Shown here in pieces: positions 3,424-64,000 of a stretch of DNA of 64,000 nucleotides; position 1 is the first letter of the stretch; each line of letters opens with the position of its first letter. The DNA comes from Trichinella spiralis (taxonomy: Eukaryota): contig NW_003526943.1 in the NCBI RefSeq assembly GCF_000181795.1, positions 1,607,647 through 1,671,646 on the forward strand. Direction: 5' to 3'. A program made the translations under genes and the position numbers. The notes under the pieces were generated by a model. That model ran no database searches. It worked only from the letters and a program-made list of their open reading frames with translations, and was not told the origin of the DNA.

Positions 3424-5709
3424 ATGACTTGCTCGGAAAGTTTTCTCAGAAACTGCACACATCGCAGCAGTGTCCGTGGAAAATGGAAATTATCACTTTT
3501 TGTTGTATTCATGCTTGTAAAAGATACTATCAGTCAAACGACATGCAGACTTGAAAGTGGAAATACTGTTGACTGGTAAATGAAAAACTTATTCTATTTT
3601 TCTACTCATTTCTATTAAGTTTGCATTATTTTTTATGTACGTCCTTTACAAACCTCCGGGCACACCTGCATTAGAAGAAATAATTCCTTATCAGCAGCAA
3701 CAGCTACAGCCGCAACAGCCACAACATGTACAAGGATGGAGGAGATCACAAGGCGATGTTACTACAAATAACAATGCCATGTATAGAACATTAAGTGGAC
3801 TGTTTATGAACACCATCAGTGAACAAATTAATGGCTTTGCTTATAACAATGATCCACCAATGATGGTTGGCATACGTTCGAAATCTACTGGAAAAGGTGA
3901 ACAACAAGCAGTTTTGTAGTTTGAAAAGTACATATTCTGTTGTAGGAGTTGTTTTGTTCAACAATCAAGAAGAAAACAATGAAGCATTTTGGTTTCTGCA
4001 TACTGTCCCTGGATTTGTTCAAACTTTGGTACAATATGTATGGCCTAATGAACAAACTTCATATGGGCATCTGTTTGTTTGTTTAAATTTTGTCGAATCG
4101 CATTTGAGGCAAATTGGTGCGATTTCTTTTTCCTTTCTTATACAGCAATTATTAAAAATTAATTAATAATTTCATTTTTCTAGCGGAATCATTGACTTAT
4201 CAAGAAGTGATTGTTTATTGGAGCAGCATTTTGCCATCATTTAAAGAAACTATTGTTGAATTGAACAACTTTCTCAATCCAAAATATGAAATTCGAGAAA
4301 CGCCGTTCGCTTATGATGTAGAATTTCAAACAACTTCATTAACCAGTTCATCACGCATCAAGGTTTACAGCAAAACTTCAAGATCACATCTTGGCAAGAT
4401 CAATTTTATTTAAAGTGAAACAATTTTTCTTTAATATAATAAACGTCCAAACTTTACAGACATGTTTGCAAAATACCTAACCAGACGACTTGAAGCAAAT
4501 ATCAGAATATGGACACAGGTGGGTCCCAAAAAGCATTCCACATGCGGAGGCCATGTTGGTTTTGTCCAAGTTATCAAATCGCCAATTACAATAGCGACAG
4601 AAGTTGTCTCTTATAGGGATGACAAAGCAAAGTGGCTAGTTTGTGAAAATAAACAAATGTGGTGCTTTACAACAAGCAATTACTCGGTAATTTTAAACAG
4701 ATACTTTTCTTATTTAAAATCATACACATTTCTTTAAATGACTTTTTATTTAAAATTGAAATTAATTAAATATGAAGAAAAAAACATCTTAAAATGTTTT
4801 TTATTTTAACTACATTATAAAAATGTGTAACTTCAAAAGATAATTATTTTTAAAAATAGTCATTTTTCATATTAAAAATTGTTTTTAATTTTTCATATTT
4901 GACAATTTTATGTTCTGATTCATTATTACGTTGGTATTATTGCTTGTTGGGTAATGTATCATGAAATAAAATGTTTAAAGAATTTTATTCGAACTTATAC
5001 AATATACATTTCTAAAAGATTTTTGAACAAAATGGACTTTTAGGAAGAAGATCTGAAATATTCTGGCGGATCAATATGCATGACAAATCCAACCGTTTAT
5101 TCCACATTTTCAGCGTCAGCAGGTGAAACAACGGAATGCCCTTATAAGTTAGAAAATATCATGATGGGATTCGGAATGTTTGATGCATATCAAAATCAGT
5201 TAGCTATGGGTGGAGGCTATCCATTCATCACTTCTCCCATTGAAGGCGGAGTAGGAGCTCCTGGTGGAGGGTATGAATATCCGTACGGCCAGCAGCAGCA
5301 GCAACAACAAGTTTATGGTCCACAGCAATCACCATATTATCAACAAATGCAACAGCAGCCGTATGGTCAATACGGCCAACAAACCCCTTACGGTCAATAT
5401 GGCCAACAAACTCCTTACGGTCAATATGGCCAACAAACCCCTTATGGTCAATACGGTCAACAAACCTCTTATGGTCAATACGGTCAACAAACCCCGTACG
5501 GTCAGTCATCAGCAGGCTACGGCCAATATCAACCAATGCCTTATGGTCCATCTAATGTATATGAAAGTACAGGATACCCTTATGGACGGAATCGAGAAAC
5601 TACAAATTCAAAAAACAAAAATTTTCCCCAAAATCAACCGAATTCCCCTCAAAACGGATATTTCGCTGCCTTTCAAGATTCGCAATTACAGTCTCAAAGG
5701 ACTAGGTAA
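3424..5709 (+). CDS. Deoxyribonuclease II-like (plancitoxin/p43-type) secreted protein with Q/Y/G/P-rich C-terminal tail; first intron acceptor non-canonical
   Basis: Hydrophobic leader then CRLESGNTVDW/YVLYKPPG, AYNNDPP, STGKG/VVLF, FWFLHTVPGF, YGHLFVCLNF, DDKAKWLVC, WCFTTSNYS and SGGSICMTNPTVYSTF follow the DNase II motif order. Both HxK histidines are replaced. Confidence 0.85.
5359..5505 (+). repeat. Coding 27-bp tandem repeat, (P/S)YGQYGQQT x5 plus a partial unit
   Basis: Directly visible; the units differ mainly at synonymous positions (tat/tac, ggt/ggc, acc/act). Confidence 0.95.
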
Positions 5710-17999: not shown

Positions 18000-18117
18000 T
18001 TGATGCAAATTGTTACATACGGGAAATGACTGTTGGTTAAAAATATTGGTATTGGAAATGAACTGTCATATTCAAAAATATCTTATAGCTAGTACGACAA
18101 CGCTCAGTAATGGAAAT
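18000..18117 (+). repeat. Diverged direct repeat, copy 1 (copy 2 at 19718-19835)
   Basis: Gapless 118-bp alignment by eye, about 76% identical (ttgatgcaaattgttacatacggg...agtaatggaaat vs ttgatgcacattgtttcatgcgg...agtaatggaaat). Confidence 0.85.
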
Positions 18118-18261
18118 CATGTTCATCACAATATGAGCATTAACGTTATTCCATTCTAGAGAAAATAGCTTCACTACAGAATAAAAACTGACACTTGTTG
18201 TTAGATTCAAAACTGCTACTCCGTATTCGATGAAAATGGCTTTGCTGTGGGAAATGTTCTA

Positions 18262-18737
18262 TGTAAGAACCAAGAGTTCGCCTTTTATGCTCAGGTTCGA
18301 CTGCCTGCCAAACTCATTTGACATGCGGGAAGAGTAGTGGACTGTTCTGTTTTATTGTCCAACCGTTGATATGGTTACTCAAGAGGGCAATCGCGTTGGT
18401 TAAATACAAGTAGTTTCAAGCAAACTCAGACAAATACACGCTCGTTTATTCGGTACAAGTACAGGCTAGAGATGCGCACAACTTCGACAGCAACGAACAT
18501 TCTGGAAGTTGAACTTTACAGTTCCCAAACTTAACTTCCACTTTTAGAGAAGCTCCTAGCGTGTGTAATGATTCGTCTTACTGCTCCTGGTTTCAGGAAA
18601 ACGTTCCTGTATTTTTTCATACGGTTCATCCAGAGGAAAGATACCTTTCCTCATATTTCAACCAGGCAGAGGATCACGCGCACAGCCGTATCCCGCCAAT
18701 GTCGTTATGAACAATTTTCCTACATCAGGTTCCTTTT
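18262..18737 (-). mobile_element. Degenerate LTR-like/interspersed repeat remnant
   Basis: Left end TGTAAGAACC also heads the partial inverted copy at 19856. Minus-strand AATAAA at 18445-18450. The right end is degenerate (ggttcc) and no TSD was found. Confidence 0.35.
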
Positions 18738-19855
18738 TATTGGTGTGATTCTCAATTGGAATCGATATTGTTTTTATTTATTGTTAAAATATTTATTATT
18801 GACAATTTCTTTAATAAAATTTGTGTTATTTTTTAATTATCTAACATATTTTTTCTGCCATTTATTACAAATTAAATAGAATAATGACAATTAATGGTAA
18901 AATTACTGCATTTAATTATTTTTTGTAAATACTGCTGCATCAGTATTATTTATATTGCTTCTCAAGAAAGTCTACCTCATATCATTTATTTTATAATTAT
19001 TCAGCATTTATGGTTACTTTTGTTTTAATTTATTTATTTATGCTTATATTTTAAGCAAACTTAAATGAAAAGCTGTAGGCTGTAGGTAGTGATGCCTCTT
19101 GTAAAAACAAGAATTCGAGTATTATTAATGTTAAAATCATTTTTTAAAAATACCATTAAATAACAAAAAACAAGTAAAGAGAAAATGGCGCACATTGTCG
19201 AACATGTTCTTCAAAACCGTTGGCCAGATCAACCAAATCAGCTTCCTTTCGAATCAACCGCTGCATATAAAATATGCACCGACTGCATGCGGCAAATATC
19301 CTTTTGAAATGTTACTAACGGATTTCAATACTGCAGATTTTTTATTTCAGAAGTTTGAAATTCAGTGGACTGACTATATAGAAAAATAAGTTTTACCTTT
19401 GATGTGTATTTAATAATTTTTAAAAGTATAAAAGTTTTAAAGTTCTTTTACCTATGAGATGTTATATATCGCTAGCATTCCTGATTAGGTATTATTAGCT
19501 GAAATCCTGAGCTATTTATACCAAAAAGAATGTATTTACGTCAGAACAAGTTACAAGTAAATCCGCTTCAGCACAGTCAATTCAAAGTATAAAAGTGATG
19601 CAAATCTTTCGTCAGTTTAACTAAAAGAAAATCTATGGAGCAGTAATCGACACAAAATACGCTAAACCTATTATTATCAACGATTTCTTTTTCTATAAAT
19701 GTGTTATTTGTTTTACTTTGATGCACATTGTTTCATGCGGAAAATGGCTGTCGCTTAAAAATACTGGTATTGAGAATAAAGTGTTAAATTAAAATGTATA
19801 TCTGAGTTGGTACAACAATACCGAGTAATGGAAATGTTGAGGTCTAGTGACAAGA

Positions 19856-19928
19856 TGTAAGAACCTGATGTAAGAAAATTATTCATAACAACAATGGCGG
19901 GATAGGGCTGTGCGCGTGACCTTCTGCC
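19856..19928 (+). repeat. Partial inverted copy of 18664-18732
   Basis: aacctgatgtaagaaaattattcataacaacaatggcgggatagggctgtgcgcgtgaccttctgcct matches the reverse complement of 18664-18731 with 7 mismatches in 68 nt. Confidence 0.9.
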
Positions 19929-20346
19929 TACGTGAAATGTTGAAAATAGTATTACCGGGTAATGTAGTTGACATAGCTCTACTATGTGCTCTCATTGGGG
20001 TACTTAAATTCGTGAATTTCCCGGGACTGATTTGCCTCAAATTTTATTACTTGACGTTGCAATTATTAAAAGGGAACTGTGAAATTAAATTTCCAGGGCA
20101 TTCTTTACATGAAAGCCATTTTCAACCGAATTCAACGTAAATACTTTACGAATCTGCGACTAGACCACTTGCATTTAGCATTTGAAGTAAAGAAACAAAA
20201 CATCAATAACTTTTCATTTATTTATTAATTAAACTGTTGCTTTGTATTTACGCATCGGTTATTGATAATTAAATGTCAAAACCTGCATGGAACAGAAACA
20301 AAAATTTAAAATATTTTATTTAAATAATAATTGCATAAAGGGCAAA

Positions 20347-22799: not shown

Positions 22800-24584
22800 T
22801 CATGCTATGTCGGGTTCCAGTTTCTCTTGTAAATATGCTATGTTTCGAACAGAACCAAAAAAATCTGTTATAAGCACTTTTGATGGATCTTTATTGAATA
22901 AATCTGTGCGGACTCCAACCGTTGAAAGACATTTTGATTTCGGGCAACAAGCAAGCTAAAAATGATAGAACTATTAGAGTTAAGAAGTTTCCATGCTTAC
23001 AAACTTACAAATTCTGCCAATGTTCGGTTGCTATTTGGCCATACAGACTGTAAAAATCCTAACGCATAATATGTATATCGGTCAATCATGTACACACCGA
23101 GAGTAGAATCTAGATGATGCTGAAAGCATATTTCATAAAAATATTTTTCTACAGTTAAAATTTTATTACTAATGAATGTCACTTTAAATATAAAATATCG
23201 CTCTGCTATTATTTCCATAAGTATTTAAAACACACTATAACTTATTATTATAAAAAATAATTACCGACAACGAGTCTTCTCCAATCATGCTACTTCCAAG
23301 TGCTATAACATTAGGACTATAAATTTTTTGATACATCGATGCAGCCTGACAAGTGTCAACGATAAGCATCAATTCATGGTATCTGAAAGAGACTGTAAAA
23401 TTCACAATAAAAATGATCATTTCTTGTACATGCCTGTTTTTTTGCCACATTTGTTCAATTGCATCCGCTAAATCAATATTAGTAACTTCTTCGGCGTCTT
23501 GAAATTTTAAGAACCCGTCTCCTCCATGACCTATAAGCTAATATTCCATTAATTTTTATATAAAAAAATAAATGCAATTTTTGTTTGGAAAAACGGCTTT
23601 GATAACTGTAACGTGATCTTCAATTACTGATTCACAACGTATCATTAAAAACAACTAAATTTATTTTGGTTTTATTTTATCAGTGTAATCCGTGATAATT
23701 TACAAAATTATGTACCTGTCATGTAAATAAGTACGTTGCTTTGATAATCCGATAGAAGTCGTTTTGAACGTGAAGTTGCTGTTGGAACACGACCAATTAA
23801 TATTCGTATAAAGTTTTCTACAGTAACTTCGTAACCTCTATAATCGACTTCCACATCTTCGCCATACAAATTAATAGGATGAAAAGCACTATTATATAAT
23901 GCACCTAAAAAATAACATGGTACAATATGGAATGATTTGTTGTACAACAAATTCATTTCATTTGAAATTCAAAATTTCCAAATCTTGTGCTAAAAAAATT
24001 TACCTGGCTTCGGATTCCGGGGATTGCAAGGCATATCATCAGCCAGCATCATAATAATCTGACTAAATTTAAAAGAAAATTTTCTATTTACAATTTCCAT
24101 AATAAGTCAACAATATAACATGTGAAAAAAATTTTAAAGTTTTGTATGTCAGACTTATATTAAATAAATATTTTCTGGTAATTTTAAAAACAAAAGAAGT
24201 TATAAATAATTATAAAGGGCAAGAATTCTAATAAACATCAAAGTTGATGCGTTACCTGTCAGGAATACCCAGCTTCTTCACACTATGATACATAGAAAGT
24301 ACATTTGCTATGTGACGATAATTGAACCAGAATCGTGAAGTACACACAAAAACAGCCCAGTTATTAGTATGGCCGGCGGCATAAAAAAAACCATTAAGTT
24401 TTTCCTGAAATTATATAAATCACAGCCATACTCACATAAATACTAAAAAAGTAAATACATTTAAAATTATTTAAATTTTTTCAATTCATTATTCATTCAA
24501 AAGAAAACTTACATCATGTAAAGCATCCACCGCAATGAAAATAATCCAAATCCATGACAGGTGGGAAATTAAATTCAGCGCCAT
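22800..24584 (-). CDS. PIGK: GPI-anchor transamidase catalytic subunit Gpi8 (multi-exon span)
   Basis: Signal peptide, HTNNWAVFVCTSRFWFNYRHIAN, EVDYRGYEVTVENF, YMTGHGGDGFLKFQD (catalytic His), DTCQA (catalytic Cys), TDFFGSVRN, ending EPDIA*. Confidence 0.96.
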
Positions 24585-24790
24585 ATCACACTTAAAATAC
24601 TTCAGCTGTGATTGTTAAATATTCTTTTTTAACAACACATTTTGTATTGATTTAAACTTCAGTGTTATAAATAAAACCAAATTATCTCATAGCAAGATAA
24701 AATGGCTGAAAGAAATCATTTTCTTATTATAATACAGTAATTAGTAAAATTCAAGCTTATTGAAATTGTACTTTTGAATTTCAATGTTAT

Positions 24791-25062
24791 TGTTAAAGCG
24801 AAATCACAATTTCGCCCTCGAGCTTAGTGGACTGTATAATTGGTTTTCGTCGCAATAACAGTCAATCAAACCAAACGGAGTGTTGACACAGTTTATTAAG
24901 ACAGCTAACTAACAAGCCAAGACAATACAACAGGAAAAGACGCAATATCACACAACACACACAGCCACACACACACGCACTTGACGTCACTACTACGCCT
25001 ACTGTAGTCCTTCCTGATTCGCAGGTTCCCACTACCGAAACCTGGCTGTTACGTCCGTAACA
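24791..25062 (-). repeat. 3' LTR
   Basis: Identical by eye to 28698-28969. Minus-strand AATAAA at 24892-24897; CRE palindrome TGACGTCA at 24982-24989. Confidence 0.97.
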
Positions 25063-28000
25063 TCCTCCCCCGGCGATGGGGAATTTCCTTCCCCATCGAT
25101 TATGCGGGCTGGCTCCAGCACTACCAGTTTAGCGACTGGCCCGGTGATTTCTGAGGTGGACGTGCGGATCCGGGCGGCTCTGCTCACTCCATCTTGGCCT
25201 GGGAATAGCTGGATCACCACTCCCAGAGGGCAGCGTGTTCGTGGACGACTGTCCTCCAGTATCAACACCAAGTCGTTGATTTTTGGGCCAACACCGTTAT
25301 TTCTCCACTTGTTGCGAGGTAGCAGCGAAGCGATGTAAGTGCTCCTCCAACGGCGCCACCATCTTGCCATCAACCGCTGATGGCAGCACCAATCCATCTC
25401 CCGATGTGGGTGTCTTCGTGTACATAGGCCGGTCGTTGCGTGACGGCAACCCGGCCTTCTGTGCTTCGGCTGCCCGCAGCCTCGATCCTCGCGCCTCATG
25501 CGCTCCGTTGGGATCCAACCGCGTTGCTCGATCGCGTTTAACGATCGACGTACCTCTGTGGGCAGCGCTCCCCAGTGCATGGGGCAGATTCGGGTCTCTG
25601 TCCACACGTGCCTCCCTGGAGGCACTGCCGGGTGACCCGTGGACCCCGGCGCGTCCGGATTCTGATCTCTTACCAGCGGTTTCCGAGTTACTTCAGTCCG
25701 GTGCGGTTCCCCTTCAGTCCGCTCAGCGTCCCCGTGTTTGCCCTTTGCCGACGGGTGCCTGCCAGCGAAGCGCGGACGGTGCACGCTGGTTTGCCACACC
25801 CCCGCTGCATTCCCTTTGATCGTTGAATGCCTGGGGTCAGCGGCGTCGTCCATCGTCGACGCCAATTCTGACTGTCTTGATGGGCTGTGTCCCACTTGCG
25901 ACAACCGTGTGGTCCGTCCTGAGCCCTCAAGACCGCGCCGCCGAGCTTGTAGTGGCTCGGCTGGCCATCCGGGTCCCTGCAGCCAGGGTTTCCCGGTTAT
26001 CCACTTCTTCAAGCCTCGCTCCCCAGCGAGCTGTCGACTGGTCCGTTGGACGACGTTATGGAGGCCTCGTTGCCCTGAGTGTCGCGGGAGACTGACCTGA
26101 CTCTTCTCTGCACTAGACGTCGTGGTCTCCTCGCGCTTCTCCATAGCCTCCTTGTTCCCTTCTGGAACGTCTTCTTCCGGGATGATCTCCACTGCCTCGA
26201 TCTCCCCTGTTTTCCGCAACGCGACATCGGCGGATTTCCCAGAATTCGTCAGGAAGGTTTCCACTTCCGCAGTCCACCTGGGGCTTGCTCTCCCACGAAC
26301 TACCCAGACGAATAGCGCCTCCAACGCTACTGGACCGCCGGTCGCCCTGCTCCTCATACGACCGGTGACGAAGCCAAAGTAGTAGTCGACCTCTATCCGC
26401 ACGTCGACTCCTATGGGCGGCCATTGCCGCCGCTTCATCTTGGTGACAGCCGCCTCCTGCGACTTGTCCGATATGTCCATCTCCCCCTGTCGGACCTTCT
26501 CGCGGATCCGCTGGATGGCAAACGCTCCCATGCGGCGACTTGCCACCGGCTGGCCCAAACTGCCAACGGCCCCCGACCGGACGTCAACTTTCCATAGTCC
26601 ACGCTCCCGATCCACGAAGCCTCCGACCTTCCCAACACGGAGATTTCCATACGATCTGTCGAGCTCCAACCTCTTCGACGCCACGGCTCCATCTGCGGCG
26701 GGGTCTCCGGCCGGCGCTTTTCTTGACGACCCAACCTCCCCGAACTTCCGCATGGGGCTGTCATCCGAATCTTCGCCTTTCGACAAGACTTTGGCCTCGA
26801 TGGATCGTCTTCGGGCGGCTCTCCCGCACGTGATCCACCCAAGGCGGGTCTCCACGGCCACTGACCCACCTGTCGCTCTTCGAATGCGACCGGTCACGAG
26901 CTCGTAATAGTAGTCGATGCCGACCAATACATCGACCATGAGCGGCGTCCCTTGCCGCTGTCCCCCCTTGGGTACGGTCCTTGCCGGTGTCCCGTCCGAG
27001 GACTCCGCCGGCCCTGATTTACCGTAGACCCGAGGAATTGCAAGCGCCTTCACCATGGTGCTTGTGTCCGGTCGGCCTGAGCTTCCAACCGCTCCAAGCC
27101 GAAATTCCACTCTACGCCATCGGCGCTCCGGCCCTACACGACCTCCGAGAGTTGTGAGGCGACAACGTTCATGGGGCCCAGTGAGTCCGAGAGCTTTCGC
27201 CACGTCCTTCCGGATGAAGGAGATTGCGGCCCCGGTGTCCAGCAGGCAATTCACCACCACGTGGTTTCCGTTTGGCCCATAAGCGCAAGCACGGGCGGTC
27301 TGGAGTCCTTTCCCGGAGGTGCTTCGCACGACCAAAAGACCCTGGTGGGTGCGGTCAGACTCTGAAGACCCTGTCGATTCCCTCGTCGAGGGCGGATGAA
27401 GGAGCCGATGATGCGCCTGGCGACATCCGTCCACTCCACAGGGTCGACCTCCTCGGCATCCTCTCGCCATATGCCCGGTCTCCAGACATCGAAAGCAGAC
27501 TTCCTTGGTTCGCGCCATGTCTCTCCTCCTGGACAGGTCCGCCTTCAGGAACTTCTCACACTCTGCCGCCTTATGCTCCCCACCACAGAACGGGCTGCCC
27601 TTGGCGGCGACCACTGCCAACGCCGCCGCAGTTGATCTGATGCGATCCCCATATCTCTGTTCAGGACGCGACGGTTGCGACGAGGGCGTCCGTTGTTCCG
27701 ACTTCACTGCAGGTGTTTTCGCTTCTTCTCCATTCAACTTGGCGAGCAGATTCGCCTGCCATTGAGCGAATTCCAAAAATTTCTGCAGGTTGTCCTCTTC
27801 TTCGTCTGCATCCGGTCCGATGTTGGTGTCCCAGGCCCTTATCAATGCCGGGGGAAATTTGTCCAGCAACATCGGCATCAGGACCTCACTTGCGGGGAGA
27901 TGGCCGGCGAATGGATCTCTATCCAAAGCAGTGAGACAACGCAGATGTTTAGTCACTTCGTCCACCATGGACTGGATGCCCCGCTCCGACATCTCGCGGC

Positions 28001-28646
28001 ACGCTGGCTCCCTCCATAGGGCAGCCAAATGCTCGCGTATCACTTGTCTCGGTCGACCGAAACGCTTCTTTAAGATGTCGACGGCCTGGGGGTAGTTCTC
28101 TGGAGTGAGCGGGATGCCTTCAATGGCGTTCCTCGCCGTCCCTTCGGTGTTGGACAACAAGTAGGTGAACTTGGTGGCGTTGTCCAAGTCATTCCGTTTG
28201 TGTACATTGGCCTCGAACTGGGCCCAAAAGGAAGGGAATTCCAACACCTTCCCCGTAAACTTCGGGAGAGTCACCTCCGGCAACCTCCCATTGCTGGACC
28301 GGACCGCCGGCATGCCCGCGCTAACATTGCCGCTACCTATGGGGCCTTCTCTGCGCGCCTCAACCATCCTTGCGCGTGCACGAGCCTTTCCCTCACGGTA
28401 GGTCTGGCGACATAACGCCCAGGCATCTATCGCGGCTTGCCGCTCTTCACCTTCCAGGTCCAGCTCCACTTCGGTTTGGAGCGCGTCTGCGGCCCGGAAC
28501 GACTCCTCCATTAACGAGACCTGCTCTTCCACCTCAAAGACATCGGCGGATCTGATGCACAACTCATCCAGTTCTGCCAACAATCGGTTCAGCCGATCCT
28601 TGAGGGCCACGAGTTTCTTGCTCCGTGATTTCGCAGAGGACGCCAT
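25032..28646 (-). CDS. Gag-protease-remnant-integrase C-terminal fusion polyprotein (~1,204 aa)
   Basis: LPEVTLPKFTG...FWAQFEANVH (BEL Gag/DUF1759-like); knuckles SPFCGGEHKAAEC, CFRCLETGHMARGC and CGVDGCRQAHHRLLH; protease LLDTGA; C-terminal WWRRWRSTYIASL...DLVLI...PLGVVIQLFPGQDGVSR (BEL integrase tail). No YxDD RT motif and no DDE core. Confidence 0.9.
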   Translation of the reverse strand: MASSAKSRSKKLVALKDRLNRLLAELDELCIRSADVFEVEEQVSLMEESFRAADALQTEVELDLEGEERQAAIDAWALCRQTYREGKARARARMVEARREGPIGSGNVSAGMPAVRSSNGRLPEVTLPKFTGKVLEFPSFWAQFEANVHKRNDLDNATKFTYLLSNTEGTARNAIEGIPLTPENYPQAVDILKKRFGRPRQVIREHLAALWREPACREMSERGIQSMVDEVTKHLRCLTALDRDPFAGHLPASEVLMPMLLDKFPPALIRAWDTNIGPDADEEEDNLQKFLEFAQWQANLLAKLNGEEAKTPAVKSEQRTPSSQPSRPEQRYGDRIRSTAAALAVVAAKGSPFCGGEHKAAECEKFLKADLSRRRDMARTKEVCFRCLETGHMARGCRGGRPCGVDGCRQAHHRLLHPPSTRESTGSSESDRTHQGLLVVRSTSGKGLQTARACAYGPNGNHVVVNCLLDTGAAISFIRKDVAKALGLTGPHERCRLTTLGGRVGPERRWRRVEFRLGAVGSSGRPDTSTMVKALAIPRVYGKSGPAESSDGTPARTVPKGGQRQGTPLMVDVLVGIDYYYELVTGRIRRATGGSVAVETRLGWITCGRAARRRSIEAKVLSKGEDSDDSPMRKFGEVGSSRKAPAGDPAADGAVASKRLELDRSYGNLRVGKVGGFVDRERGLWKVDVRSGAVGSLGQPVASRRMGAFAIQRIREKVRQGEMDISDKSQEAAVTKMKRRQWPPIGVDVRIEVDYYFGFVTGRMRSRATGGPVALEALFVWVVRGRASPRWTAEVETFLTNSGKSADVALRKTGEIEAVEIIPEEDVPEGNKEAMEKREETTTSSAEKSQVSLPRHSGQRGLHNVVQRTSRQLAGERGLKKWITGKPWLQGPGWPAEPLQARRRGLEGSGRTTRLSQVGHSPSRQSELASTMDDAADPRHSTIKGNAAGVWQTSVHRPRFAGRHPSAKGKHGDAERTEGEPHRTEVTRKPLVRDQNPDAPGSTGHPAVPPGRHVWTETRICPMHWGALPTEVRRSLNAIEQRGWIPTERMRREDRGCGQPKHRRPGCRHATTGLCTRRHPHREMDWCCHQRLMARWWRRWRSTYIASLLPRNKWRNNGVGPKINDLVLILEDSRPRTRCPLGVVIQLFPGQDGVSRAARIRTSTSEITGPVAKLVVLEPARIIDGEGNSPSPGEDVTDVTARFR
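25063..25071 (-). other. Polypurine tract GGGGGAGGA abutting the 3' LTR
   Basis: Reverse complement of tcctccccc, directly adjacent to the LTR TGT terminus on the minus strand. Confidence 0.9.
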
Positions 28647-28656
28647 GGTATCCACT

Positions 28657-28695
28657 ATCCATAGGTCGCTGGTTCGACTCCGGCTCGGAGGACCA
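28657..28695 (-). other. Extended primer-binding site complementary to tRNA-Tyr nt 38-76
   Basis: Plus strand ATCCAT-AGGTC-GCTGG-TTCGACT-CCGGC-TCGGAGG-A-CCA parses as anticodon 3' stem, variable loop, T arm, acceptor 3' strand, discriminator and CCA. It lies 2 nt from the 5' LTR. Confidence 0.9.
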
Positions 28696-28697
28696 AA

Positions 28698-28969
28698 TGT
28701 TAAAGCGAAATCACAATTTCGCCCTCGAGCTTAGTGGACTGTATAATTGGTTTTCGTCGCAATAACAGTCAATCAAACCAAACGGAGTGTTGACACAGTT
28801 TATTAAGACAGCTAACTAACAAGCCAAGACAATACAACAGGAAAAGACGCAATATCACACAACACACACAGCCACACACACACGCACTTGACGTCACTAC
28901 TACGCCTACTGTAGTCCTTCCTGATTCGCAGGTTCCCACTACCGAAACCTGGCTGTTACGTCCGTAACA
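28698..28969 (-). repeat. 5' LTR
   Basis: Identical copy of 24791-25062, followed by the GTTAT TSD. Confidence 0.97.
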
Positions 28970-29235
28970 GTTATTACTGAAATTACAATGAAATTTAAAA
29001 AATGCTTTACTTTTTTAGTATAAACGTAAAATATAAATGCAATCCTCAATGCCCTATTTTAAATGCTTTTATGTGGATAAAGCCAATTTTTACATAGTAA
29101 ATCTTAATTTTTGTTTACTGTAATTAAGATACCGTGATTGCAAAATCTGATTTTAATCCCCTTTTCTGCATTTCTATTTTGCTTAAACTGTAATGTGTGT
29201 GCATTTATTTTTTATATTTAGAATTTTGTAACGCA

Positions 29236-30734
<1,499 letters not shown>

Positions 30735-63579: not shown

Positions 63580-63806
63580 AATACTCAACAGACAATCTAT
63601 AAATCGATCTATTTGTCATTTCTTTTATTTATTTATTGTTTACCTAATAACTATTCATTTTTGAATATTGACTGTTATAATTTATTATCAAAATAAAAAA
63701 ATTTAAATTTTATTTTATCTTTAATCCATAACCAACCCGAAAAAGAATACATATTTATCACATGCACATATATATATATATATAGTAGGTATGTATACAG
63801 TTGTCT

Positions 63807-64000
63807 TCTTCCTGTACGTTGGCCATTAGAAGTTACTTTGAATATTTGGGAAGGAAAAAAAATATATATATACGAATTCGTCTTCCTGTACGTTGACCAT
63901 TAGAAGTTACTTTAAATATTTAGAATGAAAAAATATATACGAATTCGTCTTTCTGTACGTTGGGCATAAGAAATTACTTTTGAATATTTCGGATGAAAAA
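63807..64000. repeat. Tandem repeat, ~67-74 bp unit, about 3 copies, running off the window end
   Basis: tcttcctgtacgttggccattagaagttactttgaatatt... recurs at 63807, 63881 and 63948 with a variable A/AT tract. Confidence 0.92.

What the first reader, a model, noticed from the sequence alone, without database searches (positions are those of the whole stretch)
24791..28969. Recently mobile non-autonomous BEL/Pao element keeping one open 1,200-codon frame without RT, RNase H or integrase core
Seen: identical LTRs, intact TSD, PBS and PPT, and only about 3.6 kb of internal sequence. After the protease the frame jumps from a pre-RT remnant (SQVSLPR...HNVVQRTSRQL) straight to a post-RNase H remnant (WITGKPWLQGPGWP). 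It continues through eroded sequence to the integrase tail and stops only inside the 3' LTR. The first Gag knuckle has C to S. Inference: large deletions and heavy amino-acid decay without a stop imply selection for openness (NMD avoidance, cis-packaging by its own Gag, or a Gag-tethered integrase tail), while RT and integrase come from a helper element. High GC lowers stop frequency and may explain part of this.
Basis: partly seen in the sequence, partly recalled or inferred. Interest (0 to 1): 0.72.

Follow-up and report, generated by a model that had tools for sequence, protein, structure and literature searches.

The report
Freeloading retrotransposon keeps junk frame open
A freshly inserted jumping gene of the parasitic worm Trichinella has lost its copying enzymes and so likely borrows them from relatives, yet its family keeps a long scrambled stretch free of stop codons, likely because being translated to the end, not the protein made, protects its RNA.

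Summary
Confirmed and larger than reported. The 4,179-bp BEL/Pao element has identical 272-nt LTRs, a 5-bp TSD and one 1,204-codon frame with Gag, protease and integrase tail; no RT, RNase H or integrase core in six frames. The site is empty in three other sequencing runs, so the insertion is very young. It belongs to a multicopy non-autonomous lineage found in 8 encapsulated Trichinella taxa. Its pol remnants are only 25-43% identical to an RT-bearing relative and vary at dN/dS about 1 (29 missense, 11 silent, 0 nonsense), yet stay in the ancestral frame through 4 large junctions and at least 196 amino-acid changes (about 13 stops expected). Base composition alone gives P about 1e-4. Gag is better conserved (92-93% against 79-80%). 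Best reading: selection on translation itself, probably RNA protection; untested. Works like mouse IAP 1-delta-1.

The parts
24786..24790 (.). target-site duplication GTTAT (left)
   Evidence: empty-site joint 24785>28970
28970..28974 (.). target-site duplication GTTAT (right)
28698..28969 (-). 5' LTR, 272 nt
28664..28695 (-). primer-binding site with an extended tRNA-3'-end-like stretch (tRNA-Tyr by recall only); shared by several related families
   Evidence: Rfam gives only a weak tRNA T-arm match, E 4.8; several different LTRs join at 28697 (loose ends)
25032..28646 (-). single open frame, 1,204 codons, stop 31 nt inside the 3' LTR
   Evidence: 1,199 aa match a public T. spiralis gene model at 99.9% (P0072)
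27387..28646 (-). Gag (DUF1759 core aa 130-274, three Cys/His knuckles), of an RT-bearing family here called A
26802..27314 (-). protease, catalytic DTG motif intact
26214..26669 (-). second, partial protease copy without the catalytic motif; start of the cassette taken from the older non-autonomous subfamily (B1)
   Evidence: double HSPs; alignment
26019..26213 (-). eroded pre-RT remnant (24/65 identical to P0095 635-706), followed by the RT/RNase H deletion
25671..26018 (-). eroded post-RNase H / connection remnant (31/108 identical to P0095 1184-1297)
25428..25637 (-). eroded integrase zinc-finger remnant (23/63 identical to P0095 1350-1414), followed by the integrase-core deletion
25346..25380 (-). 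crossover block shared by the non-autonomous parent and family C
   Evidence: loose ends at 25345 (parental eroded tail) and 25380 (family C core side)
25035..25370 (-). intact integrase tail (DUF5641) grafted from family C
   Evidence: 104/112 identical to P0013, 32-36% to parental tails
25063..25071 (-). polypurine tract
24791..25062 (-). 3' LTR with AATAAA at 24897-24892, about 135 nt after the stop
23268..24584 (-). host GPI-anchor transamidase gene (part mapped); ATG 206 nt from the element
29236..30475 (+). host rRNA adenine dimethylase gene (part mapped); likely ATG 266 nt from the element

Best explanation
This is a very young insertion of a multicopy, non-autonomous BEL/Pao lineage of encapsulated Trichinella that keeps Gag and protease, likely borrows reverse transcriptase and integrase from co-packaged relatives, and carries pol remnants whose amino acids drift freely while the frame stays open, likely because translating to a stop near the 3' LTR protects the RNA from nonsense-mediated decay. 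Shown: anatomy, empty sites, multicopy family, dN/dS near 1 with no stops, in-frame junctions, better-conserved Gag, mosaic origin. Inferred steps: (1) the RNA is translated; its own Gag/protease help package it; (2) a stop after the protease would leave about 1.8 kb of 3' UTR, an NMD trigger, whereas the real stop lies about 135 nt before the AATAAA, so copies with stops or frameshifts yield less RNA and leave few descendants; (3) co-packaging with RT-bearing relatives supplies the enzymes and causes template switches. These switches would explain the mosaic: an older subfamily (B1: Gag type B plus eroded cassette), a derived one (B2: Gag and protease type A joined out of register, duplicating half a protease), and this copy (B2 plus tail and LTR of family C, obtainable by one minus-strand switch because the families share the PBS).
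For: Empty site in 3 of 4 runs with the TSD as overlap. Eroded cassette in 38 of 95 stored proteins (one, P0075, only spans the junction), labelled T. spiralis, nativa, britovi, nelsoni, patagoniensis, T6, T8, T9; that clade began to diversify about 7 Mya (PMC4740406, passages). All remnants align in the ORF's frame. 40 best-supported of 106 variant places in 25340-26120: 29 missense, 11 silent, 0 nonsense, codon positions 14/13/13; neutral silent share 0.28, dN/dS about 1.1. All 6 indel rows there make 4 events of net +9, -21, +3 and 0. Ten copies need at least 196 amino-acid changes in 245 columns (117 shared by two or more); 13.1 (7.8) stops expected, P 2e-6 (4e-4); 9 internal gaps, all whole codons. 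Codon Markov null with the region's own T-poor composition: P(no stop) 0.004-0.008 for 245 codons, 6e-5 to 2e-4 for 430; the other two frames of that strand have 21 stops in 862 codons. Gag more conserved than the cassette in the same pairs: 255/274 vs 180/224 (P 4e-5) and 172/184 vs 123/155 (P 1e-4). Gag core nests with RT-bearing P0003, P0095, P0009 at 99/98 support. NMD substrates include long-3'UTR and transposon RNAs (PMC5765348, passages).
Against: Protein hits are selected for being open and gene models can hide stops in false introns; no between-species DNA was available. 8 of 38 cassette carriers switch frame and frameshift indels occur in low-depth Gag/protease contigs (12 of 55 rows shown). 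Only 40 of 106 variant places were shown, and zero stops in 40 has P 0.16 alone; contigs drop rare variants. Gag conservation may reflect repeated recombination with helpers rather than selection in this lineage. Among the rows the window's Gag differences are 12 missense to 4 silent, and 13 of 40 rows are alleles no run shows, so this copy's sequence may hold errors or unselected changes. No laid contig bridges the tail junction with 31 letters on each side; support is P0075 (60 aa across it, origin unknown) and depth balance in X16 (C-type tail 168.5, C-type core side 5.5, B2 side 225.5). NMD, translation and packaging were not tested. Nothing shows why the cassette is not simply deleted.
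Confidence: 0.6

Rival explanations
1. The frame is selected because the polypeptide tail itself, whatever its sequence, acts in cis: a long low-hydrophobicity extension of Gag-protease that holds the nascent protein on its own RNA or fills the place of Pol in the particle, as proposed for the IAP 1-delta-1 fusion protein.
For: Same data as the best explanation; hydrophobic share 0.18 against 0.25-0.31 elsewhere; IAP fusion acts in cis (PMC6466679, PMC7411935, passages).
Against: T is equally low at all three codon positions (0.12/0.14/0.12), as drift predicts; copies with large in-frame losses exist (P0011, P0090, P0092, P0014), so length is not fixed.
Confidence: 0.22
2. No selection on the frame: T-poor, GC-rich composition or a one-way T>C / A>G mutation process rarely makes stops, and open copies are over-sampled.
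For: GC 0.59-0.61; coding strand T 0.12-0.14; alternative frames stay open up to 179 codons; sampling by protein search.
Against: The null already uses this composition; all 12 kinds of change occur among variants; 39 of 432 codons are one transition from a stop; composition cannot keep 4 large junctions (chance 0.012) and the indels in frame.
Confidence: 0.08
3. The tail-and-LTR swap in this copy is an assembly chimera between a family C insertion and B2 reads; the family-level result stands but this exact element does not exist.
For: Both joins lie in blocks shared between families (PBS; 25346-25380); 13 private alleles.
Against: P0075 spans the junction; depth balance in X16; X1 holds the LTR-flank join and many of the window's alleles.
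Confidence: 0.08
4. The frame is kept to tether an integrase C-terminal tail to Gag.
For: DUF5641 is intact in this copy.
Against: Parental copies in T. spiralis, T6, T8, T9, nelsoni have an eroded tail; the intact one is a late graft.
Confidence: 0.02

Closest known systems
Mouse IAP 1-delta-1 elements
   Same: Non-autonomous LTR element with an in-frame gag-pol deletion, one fusion ORF, needs enzymes in trans, makes new insertions (PMC6466679, PMC7411935; passages. The primary paper, Saito 2008, was not held).
   Different: ERV class II in a mammal; one deletion as described in those passages. Here a BEL/Pao element with several nested deletions, remnants at 25-43% identity, dN/dS about 1, in 8 host taxa, with Gag and LTR swaps.
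TR-GAG elements of plants
   Same: Two LTRs, Gag ORF kept, mobilised in trans (PMC8704663, passages).
   Different: TR-GAG encodes Gag only; here Gag, an intact protease and some 540 further codons in frame.
Defective interfering RNAs of mouse hepatitis virus
   Same: [quoted passage not shown]
   Different: Short-lived RNA-virus defectives, not a genomic lineage millions of years old.
Autonomous Trichinella BEL/Pao elements (P0095, P0003, P0009, P0017, P0018)
   Same: Gag, protease, PBS, frame and stop position in the LTR.
   Different: They carry RVT_1, Peptidase_A17 (Pao RNase H region) and integrase domains.

Membership tests
BEL/Pao LTR retrotransposon (descent) | LTRs of 0.2-1.2 kb, element 4.2-10 kb (PMC3118150) | tested here: met
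   272-nt LTRs, 4,179 bp, at the lower edge
BEL/Pao LTR retrotransposon (descent) | Pao-type Gag (DUF1759) with three Cys/His knuckles and DUF5641 tail (knuckle pattern recalled) | tested here: met
   first knuckle altered in this sequence only
BEL/Pao LTR retrotransposon (descent) | Domain order protease, RT, integrase | tested here: met
   remnants are colinear with P0095
BEL/Pao LTR retrotransposon (descent) | RT-based phylogenetic placement | not testable with these tools
   no RT in the element; Gag tree places it with RT-bearing Pao relatives
Autonomous BEL/Pao | RT, RNase H and integrase core present | tested here: not met
   six-frame Pfam scan; tblastn of full-length relatives
TR-GAG | single ORF encoding Gag only | tested here: not met
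   protease and pol remnants in the same ORF
IAP 1-delta-1-like (works like) | in-frame gag-pol deletion giving one fusion ORF | tested here: met
IAP 1-delta-1-like (works like) | new insertions despite missing enzymes | tested here: met
   identical LTRs, empty site in 3 of 4 runs
IAP 1-delta-1-like (works like) | translation required in cis for mobility | not testable with these tools
   only the evolutionary signature

The most novel reading that the evidence does not exclude
A retrotransposon lineage has carried, for at least about 7 million years and roughly 0.5-0.7 substitutions per site, a 'translation-only' cassette of 350-430 codons whose sole selected property is an unbroken frame, and this cassette outlives its carriers by repeatedly capturing Gag, protease and LTRs from three different helper families.
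Probability: 0.5. Interest if true: 0.75.

Novelty: new variant of a known kind. Interest (0 to 1): 0.62.

Why it matters
It is a natural, long-running case of selection on an open frame with no selection on the amino acids, so a long conserved ORF need not mean a functional protein. It gives a direct test bed for whether NMD shapes non-autonomous LTR elements, and it records helper switching by recombination. In practice these ORFs pollute Trichinella annotation: public models fuse them to host genes (GPI transamidase P0072, KAT7 P0087, LETM1 P0098).

Tried and rejected
No whole genome was held, so there is no copy census and no DNA of other species. Run search: no RNA holder listed on record; runs guessed to be RNA were laid but their kind is not on record. 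Depth is no copy number; the X9/X6 contrast (1160.9 vs flank 105.2; 245.3 vs 105.8) is only a hint. ARAGORN found no tRNA gene; Rfam gave no significant match at the PBS. The bacterial promoter scan is irrelevant to this host. ESM Atlas gave only scores under 0.9. Earlier-findings look-ups returned nothing. A one-way T>C/A>G mutation idea was dropped. The HMMER search of 50% representatives gave 37 hits; the 10 new ones looked up were all encapsulated Trichinella; the rest were not looked up. Saito 2008 and van der Most 1995 were not held. Literature searches (listings only) showed no paper on this lineage; PMC13334664 and PMC7846577 have no 'Pao' in the main text; their supplements and Repbase were not seen and may list these elements. 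No structure prediction was run.
Full report
Observation. The element spans 24791-28969 on the minus strand. Its LTRs are identical over 272 nt, begin TG and end CA, and GTTAT flanks both ends. The internal part is 3,635 nt at GC about 0.6 in a host of about 0.3. One frame has no stop; the other five have 19-38. It runs from ATG 28646 to a stop 31 nt inside the 3' LTR. Pfam finds DUF1759, aspartyl protease and DUF5641 there and nothing in the other five frames.

Host and age. Close homologues are Trichinella proteins, and a public T. spiralis gene model (P0072) matches 1,199 residues at 99.9% and splices them onto the GPI-anchor transamidase next door. The element sits in a head-to-head gap of about 470 nt, 206 nt from that gene's ATG and 266 nt from the likely ATG of an rRNA dimethylase. 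Three of four laid runs (X2, X6, X9) join 24785 to 28970, the precise empty site; X1 holds the LTR-flank join. The insertion is therefore polymorphic and very young.

Anatomy. Against RT-bearing P0095, residues 812-876 match its 635-706 (24/65), 877-992 match 1184-1297 (31/108) and 1004-1073 match 1350-1414 (23/63). The missing parts hold RVT_1, Peptidase_A17 and the integrase core region. Every remnant aligns in the ORF's own frame. Residues 660-811 are a second, partial protease copy. The last 112 residues are 104/112 identical to P0013 but 32-36% to the tails of otherwise close copies. Contigs leave the window sequence at 25345 into an eroded tail and at 25380 into family C sequence, which places a crossover in a 35-nt shared block.

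Family. 38 of 95 stored proteins carry the eroded cassette. Their labels cover eight encapsulated taxa, none non-encapsulated; that clade began diversifying about 7 Mya (PMC4740406, passages), a minimum age if inheritance was vertical (inference). Subfamily B1 (P0006, P0008, P0011, P0014, P0015, P0090) has one protease and Gag type B; B2 (window, P0002, P0067, P0010, P0076) has Gag type A and the duplication. In the Gag-core tree each subfamily groups with RT-bearing elements: the window, P0002 and P0067 with P0003, P0095, P0009 (99/98); B1 with P0021 and P0030 (94/83, not starred) (27 rows, Gag core only).

Is the open frame selected? Within the laid runs, the 40 best-supported of 106 variant places in 25340-26120 are 29 missense, 11 silent, 0 nonsense, spread 14/13/13 over codon positions; the neutral silent share is 0.28, so dN/dS is about 1.1. 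The six indel rows are four events of net +9, -21, +3 and 0. Twelve stored proteins span the cassette in one frame; nine of them plus the window (P0044, P0061, P0067 left out as near duplicates) need at least 196 amino-acid changes, for which 13.1 stops are expected (P 2e-6; shared changes only 117, P 4e-4), and show 9 whole-codon gaps, two confirmed in DNA. A codon Markov model with the region's own composition gives P(no stop) 0.004-0.008 for 245 codons and about 1e-4 for 430. Four large non-homologous junctions are in frame (chance 0.012). Gag is more conserved than the cassette in the same pairs (P 4e-5 and 1e-4). Limits: protein hits are chosen for being open and may hide stops in false introns; 8 of 38 carriers switch frame, as dead copies should; zero stops in 40 variants is not significant alone (P 0.16).

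All four runs read Cys at the first knuckle (27596) at full depth, and 13 of the 40 listed alleles are private to the window; other copies keep the Cys. The integrase tail is a late graft, so it cannot be why the lineage kept its frame. The stop in the LTR is inherited (P0013, P0095).

Mechanism (inferred). The element likely makes Gag and protease, is packaged with RT-bearing relatives and is copied by their enzymes. One template switch from a family C RNA to a B2 RNA during minus-strand synthesis would give exactly this copy, as the families share the PBS; this is standard retroelement recombination, from my own knowledge. A stop after the protease would leave about 1.8 kb of 3' UTR; the real stop is about 135 nt before the LTR's AATAAA. 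Long 3' UTRs and transposon RNAs are listed as NMD substrates (PMC5765348, passages). I put selection on the frame at about 0.85 and RNA protection as its cause at about 0.6 overall; a sequence-independent cis role of the polypeptide is the main rival. X1 behaves like RNA (two spliced host joints, no depth at 28998-29171) and covers the element, a weak sign of transcription; its kind is a guess.

Comparison. It works like mouse IAP 1-delta-1, whose in-frame gag-pol fusion aids retrotransposition in cis (PMC6466679, PMC7411935, passages), and echoes the title claim of van der Most 1995 on coronavirus defective RNAs (reference entry only). It is not a TR-GAG (PMC8704663, passages). By descent it is BEL/Pao (PMC3118150, passages). 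Four searches (listings only) showed no description of this lineage; Repbase and supplements were not seen.

Verdict. Real, young, multicopy; a new variant of the non-autonomous LTR element. The noteworthy part is the family-level signature of an open frame kept under neutral protein evolution, with helper switching. The mechanism is untested. Interest 0.62.

Noticed in passing
window 24584-29236: The insertion falls in the short head-to-head promoter gap between GPI-anchor transamidase and rRNA dimethylase genes; in run X1 a contig runs from the LTR end into spliced transamidase exons, so the LTR may affect that gene.
   Followed up: partly
P0072, P0087, P0089, P0098, P0127: Public Trichinella gene models fuse this family's ORFs to host genes (GPI transamidase, KAT7, LETM1) or give odd automatic names.
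   Followed up: partly
window 28664-28695: The PBS looks like more than 30 nt of a tRNA 3' end including the T-arm, longer than the usual 18 nt; tRNA-Tyr by recall, Rfam match not significant.
   Followed up: partly
P0067 (T6): One gene model holds two neighbouring copies of the same non-autonomous subfamily; the first has a protease segment of family A type, a further sign of recombination.
   Followed up: partly
runs X9 and X6, window 25801-26144: Single-contig depth over the cassette is about 11 times the flank in X9 and about 2 times in X6, a hint of different copy numbers between samples (depth is not a copy number).
   Followed up: no
window 5323-5511: Tandem 27-nt repeat encoding QQTPYGQYG units in a plus-strand ORF at 5044-5709.
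   Followed up: no
window 18000-19938: A 118-nt direct repeat (76%) and a 78-nt inverted repeat (87%), possibly a decayed small transposon.
   Followed up: no
window 63804-64000: Three copies of a 56-nt unit at about 70-nt spacing at the window end.
   Followed up: no
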